Source of the DNA: a virus
Lineage: Duplodnaviria > Heunggongvirae > Uroviricota > Caudoviricetes
Length of the DNA: 14,615 nt
Reading direction: 5' to 3' (one strand)
IMG/VR virus record: IMGVR_UViG_2534681763_000008
Shown: one piece after another, positions 2,762-8,059 of the stretch
Position numbering within the stretch: position 1 is the stretch's first letter
Layout: every line of letters starts with the position of its first letter
Made by a program: the position numbers and the translations under genes
Notes under the pieces: generated by a model
The model's input: only the letters and a program-made list of their open reading frames with translations
The model's database searches: none
What the model was told of the DNA's origin: nothing

Positions 2762-3091
2762 CTATGCCACGACCTGTTCAAAATCTGCCGTTATGGTTAC
2801 CCACAGCGCCCCCACGCTTGCCGACCATTTACGACAAACCACCCTGATCGGCTTCCAGTCATAAGGTGGCGTCCACTGAAATGCGCGGACGCCACCGTGC
2901 CGTTCCAGAAAGGCTTTCAAAGATGGGTGTTCACATTTACGAACACGTATCGTCACGCTGTAAGTCGACAACTGGTTATTCAGTCCCGCCGCACGACGCT
3001 GTTCATAACCATCGCCCAGCTTCACTGTCACCACTTTCGGCTCTGATACCACATTCATATCCGGGCGCACTTTCCAGTGAAACGTCTCCAT
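2762..3091 (-). CDS. M: Minor tail protein M
   Basis: 109 aa, METFHWKVRPDMNVVSEPKVVTVKLGDGYEQRRAAGLNNQLSTYSV...FEQVVA; same length and pattern as lambda gpM. Start ATG shares its A with the H stop (TAATG at 3093..3089). Confidence 0.9.
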   Translation of the reverse strand: METFHWKVRPDMNVVSEPKVVTVKLGDGYEQRRAAGLNNQLSTYSVTIRVRKCEHPSLKAFLERHGGVRAFQWTPPYDWKPIRVVCRKWSASVGALWVTITADFEQVVA

Positions 3092-6000
3092 TACCGATAT
3101 GCTCCACTTAACCGACCACCATCACGGGCCTGCTGTTGCATAAAGTCCGCTGCCGCTTTTTTCCCAAGGTCATAAACCACCTTCAGGGCAGCCGGACCTA
3201 TCTGCCCGTTCGTGCCATCGTTATTGATCTCGATGTTGTACTGCGGGGCAAACATCGCCATACCTGAACCACCAATATCCGCCACAACCCCCAGCTTACC
3301 GTCAGCACCACGACGCAGTGGCAGAATGGCTTCAGGTCCAGCTTCCCCCATCACACCCGCGCCTTTTGCAAAAGCAAAAAACGTCGGACGGTTAACCACC
3401 GTGCCACTGTAGCGACTCAAATCAGCCGACTGATAAACACCGCCATCAGCATTGGCTACAAAATCAAAAGGCAGCGCGGAAGCAATACCTTTTACCGCTT
3501 TCATTAAAGCTATCTGAGCCATGATTCTGGACATATCTGACAGCACAGAAGAGGTGAAGGATTTGAAATTGAGTTTGCCTGTAGTACAGAATGTCGCCAG
3601 CCAGTCACTCATGCTACTGAACGCAGACGTGAACAACTGTTCCACTGTCCCGGCTGTGTTATCCGCTTTCTCAGTGACATTCTGGAGTGCACGCAGGACT
3701 CCGTTTTTCCAGTCACCCTGAGCAATTTCAAGCTGTTGCCAATAACGGCGATTCTCATTCAGTTGTCGGTTCAGGCTCTCCGTCAGCGCCTGCTCGGCCT
3801 TTCTGTAGTCATCCGTGTTATATGTTCCTTTCTGCTCACTATCCCGCCTCAACTGCTCCAGCTGTTGCTGGTATTTCTGGCGAAGACTCAGTTGTACCTG
3901 ATATCGCTGCCGCTGCTGATCACCCATACCCACCGTGGCGATATCCAGGTCATGTTGCTGGCGCTGAGCGCGCTCTTCTTCAGCCAGTTGACTGGTCAGC
4001 TGAATTGTTTTTTTCTTCAGATCGTTGAGTGCCGTCTGTTTCTGAAGCTCCTGCTGTTTTACATCCAGCAGCGTCAGTGCCTGAATCAGTTCATCTTTAC
4101 GGGCCAGCACACTCTTTTCATCTGCCGTCAGTTTTTTCCCGTCCAGATCGCTGATGCGCTGCTGCAGAGCCAGAAGCTGTTTATGCGCTTCTGTCATCCT
4201 GTCAGTGGCAATGCCTGCTGACTGTCTTGCAGCAGCAATCTGTCCTTCCACCTGTGCCTGTTGCTGACTGTACTGCAGCAATAACCGGGTGGCCTCATCA
4301 TTACGGGTTTCGCGTGTTTTTTTCTTACCGGATGCCAGGGCTTTCTCGTAACGTTCATTTTCACGTTGTATCGCCGCATCCCTGACAGCCTGATCGGCGT
4401 ACTGCATGGCATTAATACGCGCAATTTCACGCTGATGTCGTGCTGCTTCCGTTTCATTCATCCGGTTCAGTGCAGCATTTTCAGCATTACGGCGTTTCTG
4501 TTGCTCCTGATAATTCCGCTCTGCCTGCTCTTTTGCATCCTGCAAATCCTTCTGGCGTTTTTTCTCCTGAAGCTCGTTAAGACGCTGCTGATCGTACTCA
4601 ACCTGAGAAGATGATGCCGTCCAGGGGAGTCTTTTCGCCCGCGACACTTTCTCCTGTAAAGCGGAAATCTGTTCATCCAGCGAGTCTTCACGACCAATAT
4701 TCATGGCCGCATCCCAGAAACGACTCCATAAATCAGACAGATACTTCAGCGTACTGCCCAGCGCATTGAGGTTATTATCAATATCCGCAGTACGCCGACC
4801 GGTTTCCTCTGCCAGTGCAGACATGGCTATCCGTGCCGCATCACTGGACCGCCCCTGTTCCCCAAGGACGCGTATCTGCTCAAGCTGAGTGGCAGTAAGA
4901 AAATGCAGCTCATTGTCCAGAGCCTTCGCGGCATTTACAGGATCATCCTTCAGCCGCTTAAACTGACTTATGGTATCGCTGACCGACTGGCCAACCGATC
5001 GCTCCATCTGTGCGGCAGCTCTCGCCACCATACCGATATCGTTTCCACGAAATGCACCACTCCCCACCACCTGAGCCAGCGCACCGGCTGCAGCATGTTG
5101 CGTGATACCATTCCCGGAAATAGCACGACTGAGCGTCCACAGCTGCCCGGCAGTGACTCCGGCATAATGCCCCGTCAGCGACAACTGGCGGTTAAATTCT
5201 TCCCCCTCCTTCTGACCGTCATACCAGGCTTTACCCAGACCATAGACGGCCGCGGCAATACCGCCAATAACCCCGCCCAGCATCATGCCTTTCGGTGACA
5301 TCAGTGTGTCTATCCATCCGGCACGGTTAGCCAGCGTTATCCCGGATCCCCTCAGCGCACCTAAATTGCCGCGAGCCAGTTCACCTATCAGAACGCCTAT
5401 CTCCTGGCGGGCCGCTGCACTTTTCAGACCCAGCGAATGCGTGGCTTTTCCTGCCTGCTCCATTTTGCGGATATACACTTCTGCAGCACTGCTTACCCCC
5501 AGCTGGGCAGCCTTAGCACGAAGCAACTCAGAAGAAGAAAGATTCTGGCGGGTTGCCTGCTCTTTAAGCTGACGGATAAACGCCACTTTCTGTCGGGTAG
5601 CCTCTTCCTCAGCCTGTGTAAGAACACGGGTTTTCGCCGTAACCTCAGAAATCAGCGCCAGATAATCCTGCTGACCAATCCCGCCACTGTTTCTGGCCTG
5701 TCGGATCTGCTGCTGAATACGCTGTAATTCCTGCAGCCCCGCACTGGCCTGTTTCACACTGTCAATCTGACGATAAAACGCAGCAGCCGCTTTATCCTGA
5801 GCCTCCGCCAGAGCCATGGCCTGCGCCTGTTCATCGCGCATTTTCTGGCTCAGCGCCTCCATGCGCTGGCGGGTTTTCTCCACCTCGCGGGCCATGCGTT
5901 CATGAGCCTGTGCGTTCTTCTCCACCGTCTGCGCATGGACGGAGGCGGCTGTTGCAGCCGAAGAAGCCGCCTGCGTTGTCTGCCGGGCGGCCTGAGTCTG

Positions 6001-6147
6001 ACGCTCCATAAAACGCTGCATACGGGCAGAAGACCGTTCTGCATCGCTGGCGGCACCATTCAGAAGGTTTTTGATACGGGGAATTTCATTTTTAAACTCT
6101 GCCGCATCAATCCCCAAATCAATGACCAGGTTGGCTATCTGGTCCAT
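3091..6147 (-). CDS. H: Tail tape measure protein (lambda gpH-like C-terminus)
   Basis: ORF 3091..6177; preferred start ATG at 6147..6145 (MDQIANLVIDLG...) with GGAGGT 7 nt upstream. Long Q/E/R/A-rich coiled-coil-like middle, hydrophobic segment MMLGGVIGGIAAAVYGL, C-terminus INNDGTNGQIGPAALKVVYDL...DGGRLSG as in lambda gpH. About 1018 aa. Confidence 0.9.
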   Translation of the reverse strand: MDQIANLVIDLGIDAAEFKNEIPRIKNLLNGAASDAERSSARMQRFMERQTQAARQTTQAASSAATAASVHAQTVEKNAQAHERMAREVEKTRQRMEALSQKMRDEQAQAMALAEAQDKAAAAFYRQIDSVKQASAGLQELQRIQQQIRQARNSGGIGQQDYLALISEVTAKTRVLTQAEEEATRQKVAFIRQLKEQATRQNLSSSELLRAKAAQLGVSSAAEVYIRKMEQAGKATHSLGLKSAAARQEIGVLIGELARGNLGALRGSGITLANRAGWIDTLMSPKGMMLGGVIGGIAAAVYGLGKAWYDGQKEGEEFNRQLSLTGHYAGVTAGQLWTLSRAISGNGITQHAAAGALAQVVGSGAFRGNDIGMVARAAAQMERSVGQSVSDTISQFKRLKDDPVNAAKALDNELHFLTATQLEQIRVLGEQGRSSDAARIAMSALAEETGRRTADIDNNLNALGSTLKYLSDLWSRFWDAAMNIGREDSLDEQISALQEKVSRAKRLPWTASSSQVEYDQQRLNELQEKKRQKDLQDAKEQAERNYQEQQKRRNAENAALNRMNETEAARHQREIARINAMQYADQAVRDAAIQRENERYEKALASGKKKTRETRNDEATRLLLQYSQQQAQVEGQIAAARQSAGIATDRMTEAHKQLLALQQRISDLDGKKLTADEKSVLARKDELIQALTLLDVKQQELQKQTALNDLKKKTIQLTSQLAEEERAQRQQHDLDIATVGMGDQQRQRYQVQLSLRQKYQQQLEQLRRDSEQKGTYNTDDYRKAEQALTESLNRQLNENRRYWQQLEIAQGDWKNGVLRALQNVTEKADNTAGTVEQLFTSAFSSMSDWLATFCTTGKLNFKSFTSSVLSDMSRIMAQIALMKAVKGIASALPFDFVANADGGVYQSADLSRYSGTVVNRPTFFAFAKGAGVMGEAGPEAILPLRRGADGKLGVVADIGGSGMAMFAPQYNIEINNDGTNGQIGPAALKVVYDLGKKAAADFMQQQARDGGRLSGAYR

Positions 6148-6448
6148 AACGCACACCTCCGGAAATACCTTCTCCAAGATGCATCAGTTCTTCGTCCGTT
6201 CGCTCCGGTATCCCGTTCTCTTCCGGTAAAAGGCTGAAATCAGCCACCGCAGCATCACTGCTGCCGGACACCATTCTCACGATCAATGCCTTCAGCGAGG
6301 CAAACTGCGCATCCATCCACACATCACTGAAGCTCTGCATCCGGAAATAATCGCCCCACTCACCAAGCTCAGTGGCCGACATTTCCGACAGCATCCGCCG
6401 CCAGTCTGCCCGCCGGAACTCCCGGGCAAGCCGCATGACAAACTGCAT
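6119..6448 (-). CDS. T: T portion of tail assembly chaperone G-T (expected to be made as a G-T fusion by -1 frameshifting)
   Basis: ORF in the -1 frame relative to G, immediately downstream. The T frame is open upstream of its ATG back to 6481, overlapping the last 8 codons of G. Gene order V-G-T-H as in lambda. Confidence 0.75.
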   Translation of the reverse strand: MQFVMRLAREFRRADWRRMLSEMSATELGEWGDYFRMQSFSDVWMDAQFASLKALIVRMVSGSSDAAVADFSLLPEENGIPERTDEELMHLGEGISGGVRYGPDSQPGH

Positions 6449-6456
6449 TTCCCGCG

Positions 6457-6843
6457 TCAGGACTTTTCCGGCGTCAGCGCCTCATGCTCATCATCCCCGG
6501 CATTATCAATGGCCCCCATACCGCTCAGCGACAGAACCATCTCCGCCCCCGCACCCAGGGCATCATACGACCATGTTGTAATAACGGATGCGCAAAGCGT
6601 CTCTACATCCTTAGACTGATCCGCATTCCACAGTGAGCGGGAAACCAGCCAGGCATTGATATCCATCCCCATCCGCAGAAAAGCAATCTGTCGTTCAGCC
6701 TCCGGCAGTTCTCCCTCCCCGGCATCAAACTTTGCCGTTCGCTGCTGAACAAACGCCAGATATTCAATTCTCTGCAGCCCGGACAGCTCACTGAGCACCA
6801 CGGACTGTTTTTCATAATTAAACGTGCCCTGTTTCAGAAACAT
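6457..6843 (-). CDS. G: Tail assembly chaperone G
   Basis: ORF 6457..6885; preferred start is the second of two tandem ATGs (6846 and 6843), giving MFLKQGTFNYEKQSVVLSELSGLQRIEYLA..., like lambda gpG MFLK...LSELSALQRIEHLA. GGTGGAG upstream. Confidence 0.85.
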   Translation of the reverse strand: MFLKQGTFNYEKQSVVLSELSGLQRIEYLAFVQQRTAKFDAGEGELPEAERQIAFLRMGMDINAWLVSRSLWNADQSKDVETLCASVITTWSYDALGAGAEMVLSLSGMGAIDNAGDDEHEALTPEKS

Positions 6844-6859
6844 CATGTTCTCCACCTGC

Positions 6860-6883
6860 AAAAAAGCCCCGGATAACCGGGGC
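6860..6883 (-). terminator. Intrinsic-terminator-like hairpin between V and G: GCCCCGG-TTAT-CCGGGGC followed by TTTTTT on the minus strand
   Basis: Perfect 7-bp GC stem (6866..6872 / 6877..6883) with 4-nt loop and a 6-nt T run (6865..6860) on the transcribed strand, 14 nt before the G start region. Confidence 0.5.
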
Positions 6884-6903: not shown

Positions 6904-7647
6904 TTAACCTGCGGCGCTGACAGCCACCGTAGCCACTGCCACAAAATCGCCGTCAGAAGTCATGCCCACAATGCTGACACTGCCCTGCTTCACGCCTTTC
7001 ACCGTGGCCACAAGCCCGTTCAGGGTCACCGTGGCAGTCTGTGGATCTGTCGAATGCACACTGATCGCTTTGTCACTGGCTCCGTCAGGTTTTACTGTAA
7101 AGGTCAGCGTGGTGGTTGCTCCCACTTTTACACTGGCAGATGCCGGTGCCACCGTCAGCCCGGTAACGCCCACGGTTTCAGTGCCTTCCTCTGCCAGATA
7201 CGGACGCCCCACACCGCTGATTTTCACGGTGCGGGTCATCACGTCTTTTGAGGCAATGGTTTTACCCAGTGAACTCAGCCAGCCACGGAAAACATCAACA
7301 GTACCGTTGGGATATTTGATACGAAACGCGCAGACTTCACCGGAGTCGAACAACTGAACCAGTTTTTTCTGCCCGCTGTCCCCCGGACGCCAGGCCAGCG
7401 TCGCCGAAGTATCACCGACGGATTTCTGCCCCTGGGTTGTCGTTTTCCAGTCTGCATCTTCATCATCGAGATAAGTGTCATCTTCTGCATCAGCGGTCAT
7501 TTCGCCAGGTTGCAGATCCTTCACCATCGCAAGACGCAACCAGTCAGTGTCCGACAAAGGGTTCGCAAACGCATCGCCGTTGCCGGTATACATCCAGAAC
7601 GTCGTTCCCGCACCTTTCGTTTTTGCCAGTGGATTTGGTGTGGTCAT
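6904..7647 (-). CDS. V: Major tail protein V, with C-terminal Ig-like region
   Basis: ORF 6904..7722; preferred start ATG 7647..7645 (MTTPNPLAKTKGAGTTFWMYTGNGDAFANPLSDTDWLRLAMVKDLQPGEMTA...) with AGGAGG upstream; matches lambda gpV. 247 aa. Confidence 0.9.
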   Translation of the reverse strand: MTTPNPLAKTKGAGTTFWMYTGNGDAFANPLSDTDWLRLAMVKDLQPGEMTADAEDDTYLDDEDADWKTTTQGQKSVGDTSATLAWRPGDSGQKKLVQLFDSGEVCAFRIKYPNGTVDVFRGWLSSLGKTIASKDVMTRTVKISGVGRPYLAEEGTETVGVTGLTVAPASASVKVGATTTLTFTVKPDGASDKAISVHSTDPQTATVTLNGLVATVKGVKQGSVSIVGMTSDGDFVAVATVAVSAAG

Positions 7648-7657
7648 TACCACCTCC

Positions 7658-8059
7658 TTAATTCGTGTACGTGATCTGGTACGTGATTTCCGCCATCGCC
7701 CAGGTGGCCATCTCATTATCACGTTGATAGTTAAAACCGAGTGGGATCAGGGTGTCGATGAGTCCGGAAAGTGCCGGTATATCATTCAGGGCCGGGAAAA
7801 TGGTGCTCTCCATCCACATATCCAGCTCTGAATCCGGTGCCTGTGCCCGGATGAAGACAGCAATATGCAGAACAGCCTGCCAGTCATCTTCATCCGTCAT
7901 TTTTCCGGTGTACTGAGCATCACTCAGCCACACTGCCACGGCAGGCAGTTCCTGCGCATCAACAAATGCCGGAAGCCCGTCAAAAAACGTGGCGCTGTCT
8001 CCACACTGTTTCCGAAGGCGTGCTAGTACGACCTGGCGGATTTGTGTATGTCGGTTCAT
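7658..8059 (-). CDS. U: Minor tail protein U (tail terminator)
   Basis: ORF 7658..8071; MNRHTQIRQVVLARL...ATFFDGLPAFVDAQELPAVAVWLSDAQYTG...DSELDMWMEST...IPALSGLIDT matches lambda gpU. Preferred start ATG 8059..8057 overlaps the Z stop (ATGA); alternative start at 8071. Confidence 0.85.
   Translation of the reverse strand: MNRHTQIRQVVLARLRKQCGDSATFFDGLPAFVDAQELPAVAVWLSDAQYTGKMTDEDDWQAVLHIAVFIRAQAPDSELDMWMESTIFPALNDIPALSGLIDTLIPLGFNYQRDNEMATWAMAEITYQITYTN

What the first reader, a model, noticed from the sequence alone, without database searches (positions are those of the whole stretch)
6446..6484. G-T overlap: 22-nt window for the conserved -1 programmed frameshift, with a non-canonical slippery motif
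The T frame is closed by a TGA at 6484..6482 and G ends at 6459..6457, so a -1 shift producing G-T must occur within 6460..6481. That stretch contains CCG-GAA-AAG (G GAA AAG at 6469..6463) rather than the lambda G GGA AAG I recall. A GGGAAAT string lies just after the G stop but is outside the G frame. T also has its own ATG at 6448 with only a weak, close ribosome-binding site.
Basis: partly seen in the sequence, partly recalled or inferred. Interest (0 to 1): 0.45.

Follow-up and report, generated by a model that had tools for sequence, protein, structure and literature searches.

The report
Lambda-type G-T tail chaperone frameshift site
This is the well-known -1 ribosomal frameshift site that joins the two tail-assembly chaperone genes (G and T) of a lambda-like E. 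coli prophage; its G GAA AAG signal looks unusual next to lambda's but is the commonest form in this gene family and is already annotated as the slip site in phage N15.

Summary
On the minus strand, G (Pfam Phage_TAC_2) ends at TGA 6459..6457. The T frame (Pfam Phage_tail_T) is the -1 frame of G and is open from 6481. The overlap is 22 nt and holds G GAA AAG at 6469..6463.

The window is 99-100% identical to mEp460/cdtI-type lambdoid phages, and this segment occurs in 1846 of 5426 complete E. coli genomes.

The motif is not an oddity. Across 160 related loci T is always in the -1 frame of G. Of 51 distinct junctions, 41 carry GGAAAAG at the homologous Lys codon, and only 6 carry lambda's GGGAAAG. 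The N15 GenBank record labels GGAAAAG "slippery sequence for -1 translational frameshift". Gifsy-2, with the identical CCG GAA AAG TCC TGA junction, is annotated as a frameshift hybrid.

The heptamer's first G is a synonymous third-codon position. It is G in 41/41 junctions, across six different codons, which argues for selection on the nucleotide sequence.

ATG 6448 aligns with an internal Leu in most relatives and has a background-level ribosome-binding site. An invariant Glu lies upstream of it in the T frame.

No downstream RNA structure was found. An upstream GAGG is only weakly suggestive as a stimulator.

Verdict: real, ordinary and already known. The only gap is annotation, because databases list T as a separate 109-aa protein.

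The parts
6457..6846 (-). Gene G, the tail assembly chaperone and the frame-0 product. It is 129 aa from ATG 6846 or 128 aa from ATG 6843, with stop TGA at 6459..6457.
   Evidence: Pfam Phage_TAC_2 (PF06894) scores 1.8e-39 and phrog_42 scores 6.6e-52. It is annotated gpG in RefSeq E. coli and as minor tail protein or tail chaperone in mEp460, cdtI and Ayreon.
6119..6481 (-). T reading frame, the -1 frame of G. It has 120 sense codons and the stop at 6121..6119. It encodes the T domain of the predicted G-T fusion.
   Evidence: Translation is. Pfam Phage_tail_T (PF06223) scores 5.1e-15 and phrog_39 scores 8e-43. phrog_32165, a 290-position G+T fusion-type family, matches both G (profile positions 1-119) and T (positions 136-252).
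6463..6469 (-). Slippery heptamer G GAA AAG, in G-frame phase. After the -1 slip the tRNAs sit on GGA AAA and the next codon read is GTC (6463..6461).
   Evidence: The sequence is. The same heptamer sits at the homologous Lys codon in 41 of 51 distinct junctions. It is annotated 'slippery sequence for -1 translational frameshift' in N15 NC_001901. Heptamer position 1 equals position 2 in 51/51 junctions.
6460..6481 (-). The 22-nt stretch open in both the G and T frames. It is the only place where a -1 shift can yield G-T.
   Evidence: In relatives the window shrinks to 13 nt (L151 Providencia, L134 Edwardsiella). The shared part is the heptamer plus 3 nt upstream.
6482..6484 (-). TGA that closes the T frame upstream.
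6480..6483 (-). GAGG, a Shine-Dalgarno-like tetramer 10 nt upstream of the heptamer. It is a possible weak dnaX-type stimulator and remains unproven.
   Evidence: The sequence is. An SD-like motif 6-17 nt before the motif's second base occurs in 16/51 junctions against a 17.7% background (p about 0.012, not corrected for relatedness), with a peak at this spacing. The criteria follow PMC4066793. Caveat: the position is fixed by a near-invariant Glu codon.
6446..6448 (-). In-frame ATG in the T frame, used by gene callers as the start of a 109-aa 'T'. It is most likely an internal Met of the fusion.
   Evidence: This position is ATG in only 6/51 junctions. It is CTG, CTT or CTA in 34 and an Arg codon in 11. 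The anti-SD duplex is at background level with 0 spacing. Invariant Glu133 of the fusion lies upstream of it.
6866..6883 (-). GC-rich hairpin followed by a T-run between the major tail gene V and G. It looks like an intrinsic terminator or attenuator ahead of G-T-H.
   Evidence: The same place is annotated as a rho-independent terminator in mEp460 and Ayreon, and as a putative terminator in N15.

Best explanation
The finding is the -1 programmed ribosomal frameshift site of the lambda-type tail assembly chaperone pair G/GT, in an mEp460/cdtI-like lambdoid prophage of E. coli.

Most ribosomes translate G to TGA 6459..6457 and release gpG (128-129 aa). A small fraction slips back one base with tRNA-Glu on GAA in the P site and tRNA-Lys on AAG in the A site. 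tRNA-Lys re-pairs perfectly on AAA. tRNA-Glu re-pairs on GGA with its first and third positions intact and a G.U pair in the middle. Translation then continues with GTC (6463..6461) in the T frame to the stop at 6121..6119. The product is a 241-242-aa G-T fusion reading ...ALTPEK|VLTREMQF....

By analogy with lambda, the G part binds the tape-measure protein and the T part recruits the major tail protein. The low G-T:G ratio would be set by the slip frequency.

What is shown here: the reading-frame anatomy, family membership, gene order, and conservation of the frame relation and of the heptamer. What is inferred: that the slip happens, its frequency, and which tRNAs move.
For: 1. Family: G matches PF06894 and T matches PF06223.
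2. Gene order is V, G, T, H, as in lambda.
3. T lies in the -1 frame of G in 160/160 related loci from phages, IMG/VR and GTDB genomes.
4. Of 51 distinct junctions, 41 have GGAAAAG, 6 GGGAAAG, 2 GGCAAAA, 1 AAAAAAG and 1 GGGAAAA, all at the same Lys codon. That Lys is invariant in the protein alignment (K128).
5. The codon before GAA ends in G in 41/41 junctions, across GCG, CCG, CTG, TTG, GTG and ACG. In the same genes only 41% of Ala/Pro/Leu/Val/Thr codons end in G. Heptamer position 1 equals position 2 in 51/51. That is what P-site re-pairing requires.
6. AAG is used although AAA is the commoner Lys codon in these genes (138 against 245).
7. The shortest overlaps (13 nt) leave only the heptamer plus 3-6 nt.
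8. The T-frame protein sequence is conserved from the slip site onward (GK[V/A]..E[L/M].F..LARE). Invariant E133 and F136 flank the window's Met134.
9. The N15 record annotates GGAAAAG as the slippery sequence. Gifsy-2 has the identical CCG GAA AAG TCC TGA junction and is annotated 'part of G+G' frameshift hybrid protein'. Phage 21 carries a joined CDS.
10. For lambda, about 4% frameshifting at GGGAAAG and a required high gpG:gpGT ratio are reported in PMC3296357 and PMC5009743.
11. A_AAG is by far the shiftiest tetramer in E. coli (PMC4066793).
Against: - No experiment exists for this phage or, as far as I could find, for any GGAAAAG junction.
- In a reconstituted E. coli system, AUG GAA AAG served as the 'unfavourable' one-tRNA control and gave mainly 0-frame product (PMC6924986).
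- A_AAG without a stimulator was barely above background in vivo, at 0.147% against 0.112% (PMC4066793).
- No downstream structure is predicted here (z = 0.01).
- The slip frequency may therefore be well below lambda's 4%.
- All public records of this clade annotate T as a separate gene starting at ATG 6448.
Confidence: 0.85

Rival explanations
1. T is made as a separate 109-aa protein from ATG 6448. This could happen by weak direct initiation or by termination-reinitiation of ribosomes that finish G at TGA 6459..6457, 8 nt upstream. On this reading no frameshift is needed in this clade.
For: - An in-frame ATG lies 8 nt after the G stop.
- It is retained in all members of the mEp460/cdtI clade sampled.
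- Every public annotation uses it. The 109-aa protein is deposited on at least 1000 contigs, while the exact fusion sequences are absent from the protein collection.
Against: - The position is ATG in only 6/51 junctions and is Leu or Arg elsewhere. This includes the closest outgroups Gifsy-2 (CTT) and a Citrobacter prophage (CTG).
- The RBS is at background level with zero spacing.
- T-frame residues upstream of the Met are conserved, including an invariant Glu.
- The clade keeps the heptamer and the -1 overlap intact.
- From my own knowledge of Levin et al. 1993, which I could not read here, lambda T is not made on its own.
- This route could coexist with the frameshift rather than replace it.
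Confidence: 0.08
2. The G-T fusion is made, but by a single-tRNA slip rather than tandem slippage. tRNA-Lys moves from AAG to AAA, either in the A site or in the P site while the next codon awaits decoding. tRNA-Glu re-pairing would play no part.
For: - A_AAG alone is the most shift-prone tetramer in E. coli, and even C_AAG shifts at 0.93% with a strong stimulator (PMC4066793).
- PMC6924986 treats GAA to GGA as a second-position mismatch.
- Two junctions (GGCAAAA in Kluyvera and Ewingella) have a P-site codon that cannot re-pair well, and they have the G stop directly after the heptamer.
Against: - The first base of the heptamer is a synonymous site. It is G in 41/41 GGAAAAG junctions across six codons, and position 1 equals position 2 in 51/51. 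A Lys-only slip does not predict this.
- GAA is used, never GAG, in all 41.
Confidence: 0.2
3. The upstream GAGG (6483..6480) acts as a dnaX-type internal Shine-Dalgarno stimulator that compensates for a weaker heptamer in this clade.
For: - GAGG lies 10 nt before the heptamer, within the 6-17-nt range shown to stimulate (PMC4066793).
- The same tetramer at the same spacing occurs in Gifsy-2 and in prophages of four other genera (L108, L109, L122, L153).
- 16/51 junctions have an SD-like motif against 17.7% expected.
Against: - The spacing is fixed by a near-invariant Glu codon (GA at 98% and 96%). Only the choice of GAG over GAA and the next base are free.
- The p-value of about 0.012 ignores shared ancestry.
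- Most GGAAAAG junctions (N15, phi80 and HK225 types) have no such motif.
- GAGG overlaps the T-frame TGA, so it may be incidental.
Confidence: 0.3

Closest known systems
Phage lambda G/GT -1 programmed frameshift (Levin, Hendrix & Casjens 1993; Xu, Hendrix & Duda 2004, 2013, 2014; cited via PMC5009743 and PMC3296357)
   Same: - The same two protein families, at 35% identity over the whole fusion.
- The same V-G-T-H gene order.
- T in the -1 frame, overlapping the 3' end of G.
- The slip at the same aligned Lys codon.
- No predicted downstream structure.
   Different: - The heptamer is G GAA AAG rather than G GGA AAG, so the P-site tRNA is tRNA-Glu rather than tRNA-Gly. The single G.U pair after slippage falls at the middle codon position rather than the third.
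- The overlap is 22 nt rather than 61 nt.
- The G stop is 3 nt after the heptamer rather than 15 nt.
- The T part has one GGVRY motif rather than two.
Phage N15 genes 14/15 (NC_001901), and the HK225, phi80 and mEp213 types
   Same: The same heptamer, GGAAAAG, is explicitly annotated as 'slippery sequence for -1 translational frameshift' in the N15 record. The proteins are homologous.
   Different: The preceding codon is GCG rather than CCG. The G stop is 15 nt downstream. There is no upstream GAGG. Protein identity is about 37%.
Gifsy-2 prophage of Salmonella (STM1039 / STM1041.1n)
   Same: The junction sequence CCG GAA AAG TCC TGA is identical, and GAGG lies 10 nt upstream as well. The fusion is 54% identical. 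It is annotated as 'part of G+G' frameshift hybrid protein'.
   Different: It has no ATG at the position of window 6448 (CTT instead), and its overlap is 28 nt.
E. coli dnaX -1 frameshift (A AAA AAG with an upstream SD and a downstream hairpin)
   Same: The A-site codon is AAG, read by tRNA-Lys(UUU). An SD-like sequence lies about 10 nt upstream.
   Different: No downstream hairpin is present. The P-site codon is not Lys. The product is a longer fusion rather than a truncated protein. The genes are not homologous.

Membership tests
Lambda-type G/GT tail assembly chaperone with conserved -1 frameshift | The upstream ORF is a gpG homologue. | tested here: met
   PF06894 Phage_TAC_2 scores 1.8e-39, covering residues 2-122 of 129. 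phrog_42 scores 6.6e-52.
Lambda-type G/GT tail assembly chaperone with conserved -1 frameshift | The downstream ORF is a gpT homologue. | tested here: met
   PF06223 Phage_tail_T scores 5.1e-15 with full profile coverage. phrog_39 scores 8e-43.
Lambda-type G/GT tail assembly chaperone with conserved -1 frameshift | The pair lies between the major tail protein gene and the tape measure gene. | tested here: met
   The ORF order on the minus strand is 7722..6904, G, T, then 6177..3091. The matching annotations in mEp460, cdtI and RefSeq E. coli agree.
Lambda-type G/GT tail assembly chaperone with conserved -1 frameshift | T is in the -1 frame of G and overlaps its 3' end, with the T frame open across the G stop. 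| tested here: met
   The overlap is 22 nt. The -1 relation holds in 160/160 relatives.
Lambda-type G/GT tail assembly chaperone with conserved -1 frameshift | A slippery heptamer lies in the overlap, in G-frame phase. | tested here: met
   Strict X XXY YYZ is not met, because GGA is not three identical bases. However G GAA AAG is the family's majority heptamer (41/51 junctions). It is annotated as the slip site in N15. It allows A-site re-pairing that is perfect and P-site re-pairing with one G.U pair.
Lambda-type G/GT tail assembly chaperone with conserved -1 frameshift | A G-T fusion protein is made at a low ratio to G and is required for tail assembly. | not testable with these tools
   This needs proteomics or genetics. 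The exact predicted fusion sequences are absent from the 15-billion-protein collection. That reflects annotation practice, not biology.
dnaX/IS911-type stimulated -1 frameshift signals | An SD-like element lies 6-17 nt upstream of the motif. | tested here: inconclusive
   GAGG is present at the right spacing. Its enrichment across relatives is weak and is confounded by a conserved Glu codon.
dnaX/IS911-type stimulated -1 frameshift signals | A stable downstream hairpin or pseudoknot lies 5-9 nt after the motif. | tested here: not met
   The 88 nt downstream fold no better than shuffled sequences, at -33.2 against a mean of -33.2 kcal/mol (z = 0.01).

The most novel reading that the evidence does not exclude
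The most novel reading concerns the heptamer itself. In vitro work used G GAA AAG as a poorly slippery one-tRNA control (PMC6924986). Yet it is the predominant natural G-T frameshift signal in Enterobacterales, and its first G is held invariant at a synonymous site.

If that conservation reflects function, tRNA-Glu(mnm5s2UUC) re-pairs in the P site through a second-position G.U pair. In that case both slipping tRNAs are 2-thiouridine-modified. This class of phage would then be more sensitive than lambda to the host Tus/MnmA thiolation state. In some clades it may also rely on an upstream GAGG to reach the required G-T:G ratio.
Probability: 0.35. Interest if true: 0.3.

Novelty: already known. 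Interest (0 to 1): 0.1.

Why it matters
It matters little as a discovery. The G-T frameshift is a textbook case of recoding, and this heptamer variant is already annotated in N15 and implied in Gifsy-2.

The practical value is for annotation. This exact segment sits in about a third of complete E. coli genomes (1846 of 5426). There, and in the mEp460, cdtI, Tritos and Ayreon phage records, T is listed as a free-standing 109-aa protein and no G-T fusion is recorded. The chance Met codon at 6448 hides the frameshift from gene callers.

A minor mechanistic point is worth a simple reporter test. The majority natural heptamer, G GAA AAG, is one that in vitro work treats as poorly slippery. The pattern of synonymous-site conservation nevertheless suggests that P-site re-pairing still matters.

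Tried and rejected
1. Downstream stimulatory RNA structure. I folded 6462..6375 and it scored no better than shuffles. Rejected.
2. Heptamer frequency as evidence. GGAAAAG occurs 4 times in the window against 2.27 expected, so mere occurrence carries no weight.
3. Upstream SD-like stimulator. The enrichment is nominal (16/51 against 17.7%). The spacing peak is explained by a near-invariant Glu codon. Kept only as a weak rival.
4. GGGAAAT at 6453..6447 as a slip site. It lies after the G stop and is out of phase. Rejected.
5. Other slip sites inside the 22-nt window. There is no other in-frame Z_ZZN.
6. Independent T from ATG 6448. It has a background-level RBS and the ATG is not conserved outside the clade. 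Unlikely as the sole route.
7. Literature. Xu et al. 2004 (Mol Cell) is not held, so I could not check whether it lists or tests a GGAAAAG junction. One malformed search and one malformed find call returned errors. A text search for GGAAAAG with 'slippery' and 'phage' returned only the in vitro EF-G paper.
8. Looking for an already deposited fusion protein of this clade. None was found by exact look-up.

Full report
**Observation**

The genes here run on the minus strand.
- G ends ...GAG GCG CTG ACG CCG GAA AAG TCC TGA, with the stop at 6459..6457.
- The T frame reads TGA(6484..6482) GGC GCT GAC GCC GGA AAA GTC CTG ACG CGG GAA ATG(6448..6446)... and runs to a stop at 6121..6119.
- T is the -1 frame of G, and the stretch open in both frames is 22 nt, 6481..6460.
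- G GAA AAG occupies 6469..6463 in G-frame phase.
- GGGAAAT (6453..6447) lies beyond the G stop and in the wrong phase.
- Lambda itself has GCG GGA AAG at the homologous place.

**Identity of the genes**
- G matches Pfam Phage_TAC_2 (lambda gpG) at 1.8e-39. The T frame matches Phage_tail_T at 5.1e-15.
- One PHROG family of 290 positions matches G with its first half and T with its second half, as expected for fusion proteins.
- The neighbours are the major tail gene upstream and a 1028-codon tape-measure ORF downstream.
- The 801-nt G-T segment is 97.9-99.8% identical to phages mEp460, cdtI, Tritos, Ayreon and others.
- It occurs in 1846 of 5426 complete E. coli genomes, often at 100% identity.
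- None of the records inspected joins G and T. PGAP and the phage authors call a 109-aa T from ATG 6448.
- That 109-aa protein is deposited on at least 1000 contigs. The predicted fusion sequences are not in the 15-billion-protein collection.

**Comparison of junctions**

I collected 160 loci with both a G and a T homologue:
- 16 loci from annotated phage records.
- 80 from IMG/VR.
- 63 from one-per-species GTDB genomes.
- The window itself.

T is in the -1 frame of G in all 160. The loci collapse to 51 distinct junction contexts. The last in-frame Z_ZZN-ending heptamer before the G stop falls at the same aligned Lys codon in all of them.

| Heptamer | Distinct junctions |
|---|---|
| GGAAAAG | 41 |
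| GGGAAAG (lambda, 21, some Stx phages, Edwardsiella) | 6 |
| GGCAAAA | 2 |
| AAAAAAG | 1 |
| GGGAAAA | 1 |

It is found in prophages of Escherichia, Salmonella, Citrobacter, Enterobacter, Klebsiella, Kluyvera, Kosakonia, Providencia, Sodalis and others.

It is also already on record. The N15 GenBank entry carries a misc_feature 'slippery sequence for -1 translational frameshift' whose seven bases are GGAAAAG. Gifsy-2, whose junction CCG GAA AAG TCC TGA is identical to the window's, is annotated as part of a frameshift hybrid protein. A recent prediction tool lists several motifs other than XXXYYYZ among annotated tail-chaperone frameshifts (PMC10274946).

**Evidence that the heptamer is under nucleotide-level selection**
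- The base before GAA is the third position of the preceding codon. In the 41 GGAAAAG junctions that codon is GCG, CCG, CTG, TTG, GTG or ACG. These encode five amino acids and all end in G.
- Only 41% of Ala/Pro/Leu/Val/Thr codons in the same genes end in G.
- Heptamer position 1 equals position 2 in 51/51 junctions. That is exactly the condition for the P-site tRNA to keep its first-position pair after a -1 slip.
- Glu is always GAA. Lys is AAG in 48 of the 51 junctions, although AAA is the commoner Lys codon in these genes.
- Flanking positions vary freely, with a major-base frequency of 0.3-0.8, against 0.82-1.0 inside the heptamer.
- These counts are not phylogenetically independent. Even so, six different codon types all ending in G are hard to obtain by descent alone.

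**Where the shift happens**

In a Providencia prophage (L151) and an Edwardsiella prophage (L134) the overlap is only 13 nt. The part shared by all overlaps is the heptamer plus 3 nt upstream. Within the window's own 22 nt there is no other in-frame Z_ZZN.

The predicted fusion has 128 G residues and 114 T residues, reading ...ALTPEK|VLTREMQF.... It aligns end to end with the lambda, N15, phi80, Gifsy-2 and Stx-phage fusions. The slip-site Lys is invariant. An invariant Glu and an invariant Phe (E133, F136) flank the window's Met134.

**The ATG at 6448**
- It corresponds to Met134 of the fusion.
- That codon is ATG in only 6 of 51 junctions. It is CTG, CTT or CTA in 34 and an Arg codon in 11.
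- Its best pairing with the 16S 3' end is -4.3 kcal/mol with zero spacing, and 37% of random 20-mers on this strand reach -4.0. The tape-measure start scores -10.8 kcal/mol at 6-nt spacing.
- It is therefore most simply a Leu-to-Met replacement inside a conserved E-[L/M]-x-F segment that happens to give gene callers a start.
- Re-initiation after the G stop, 8 nt upstream, cannot be excluded as a minor extra route.

**Mechanism**

Shown: the frame anatomy and the conservation. Inferred: the tandem -1 slippage itself.
- tRNA-Lys(UUU) moves from AAG to AAA, a perfect re-pair.
- tRNA-Glu(UUC) moves from GAA to GGA. The first and third positions are kept and the middle pair becomes G.U.
- Lambda's G GGA AAG also leaves a single G.U pair, but at the third position.

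Published data temper expectations of efficiency.
- A_AAG is by far the best tetramer in E. coli at 5.6%, but only with a pseudoknot. Without a stimulator it is barely above background (PMC4066793).
- In a reconstituted system AUG GAA AAG gave mainly 0-frame product and was used as the poorly slippery control (PMC6924986).
- Lambda needs only about 4% frameshifting, and its gpG:gpGT ratio must stay high (PMC3296357; PMC5009743). A low-efficiency site is therefore compatible with function.

Stimulators:
- The 88 nt downstream fold no better than shuffles (z = 0.01).
- Upstream, GAGG (6483..6480) lies 10 nt before the heptamer, inside the range shown to stimulate -1 shifts.
- The same tetramer at the same spacing recurs in Gifsy-2 and four other genera.
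- SD-like motifs are nominally enriched, 16/51 against 17.7%.
- The spacing is dictated by a nearly invariant Glu codon, and most GGAAAAG junctions lack the motif. I rate this only as a possibility.

**Comparison with known systems, and novelty**

By every testable criterion this is a member of the lambda G/GT tail-chaperone frameshift family. Its heptamer is the N15 type, and its exact junction is shared with Gifsy-2. The untested criterion is the existence of the fusion protein.

Nothing here lies outside what is known. What remains is an annotation gap that affects thousands of genome records. There is also a modest mechanistic question about how well G GAA AAG slips in vivo and why its first G is conserved.

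Interest is low.

Noticed in passing
window 6866..6883 (minus strand): A 7-bp all-GC hairpin (GCCCCGG TTAT CCGGGGC) followed by TTTTTT lies between the major tail gene and G. It is annotated as a rho-independent terminator in mEp460 and Ayreon, and as a putative one in N15. It probably attenuates G-T-H expression relative to the major tail protein.
   Followed up: partly
window 6145..6160 (minus strand): The tape-measure gene starts at ATG 6147, 29 nt before the T stop. Its strong SD GGAGG (6160..6156; -10.8 kcal/mol at 6-nt spacing) is encoded inside T's conserved C-terminal GGVRY motif, whose G230, G231 and R233 are invariant in the alignment. That motif may therefore be constrained at both the protein and the RNA level.
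   Followed up: no
window 6843..6848 (minus strand): G begins with tandem ATG ATG. The phage records use the first (129 aa) and RefSeq PGAP uses the second (128 aa). The GGAG upstream is 2 nt from the first and 5 nt from the second, which favours the second.
   Followed up: partly
loci L137-L149, L156-L159 (GTDB genome contigs): Short or low-coverage contigs (coverage about 0.7-2.7 where the contig name gives it) are filed under unrelated taxa such as Kitasatospora, Oceanobacillus, Neobacillus, Paenibacillus, Leeuwenhoekiella, Chromatium, Tardiphaga and Enterococcus. The L137-L149 contigs give the same match score as phage lambda. In all, 17 loci share lambda's exact overlap sequence, though I did not check which ones they are. 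These are most likely lambda DNA contamination of the assemblies. E. coli-like prophage segments also appear in MAGs labelled Bacillota and Geobacteraceae (L098, L128), probably through mis-binning.
   Followed up: no
loci L105, L107 (Kluyvera, Ewingella) and L135 (Providencia): Rare junction variants CTG GCA AAA TAG and ATG GGA AAA TAG have the G stop immediately after the heptamer. In GGCAAAA the P-site codon cannot re-pair well. That suggests a single tRNA-Lys slip helped by the adjacent stop codon (a 'shifty stop').
   Followed up: no
window 6119..6448 and public protein databases: The 109-aa 'phage tail assembly protein T' called from ATG 6448 heads a cluster of 1148 members and is seen on at least 1000 contigs. 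The predicted 241- and 242-aa G-T fusions are absent from the collection. This is a systematic annotation gap for the clade.
   Followed up: yes
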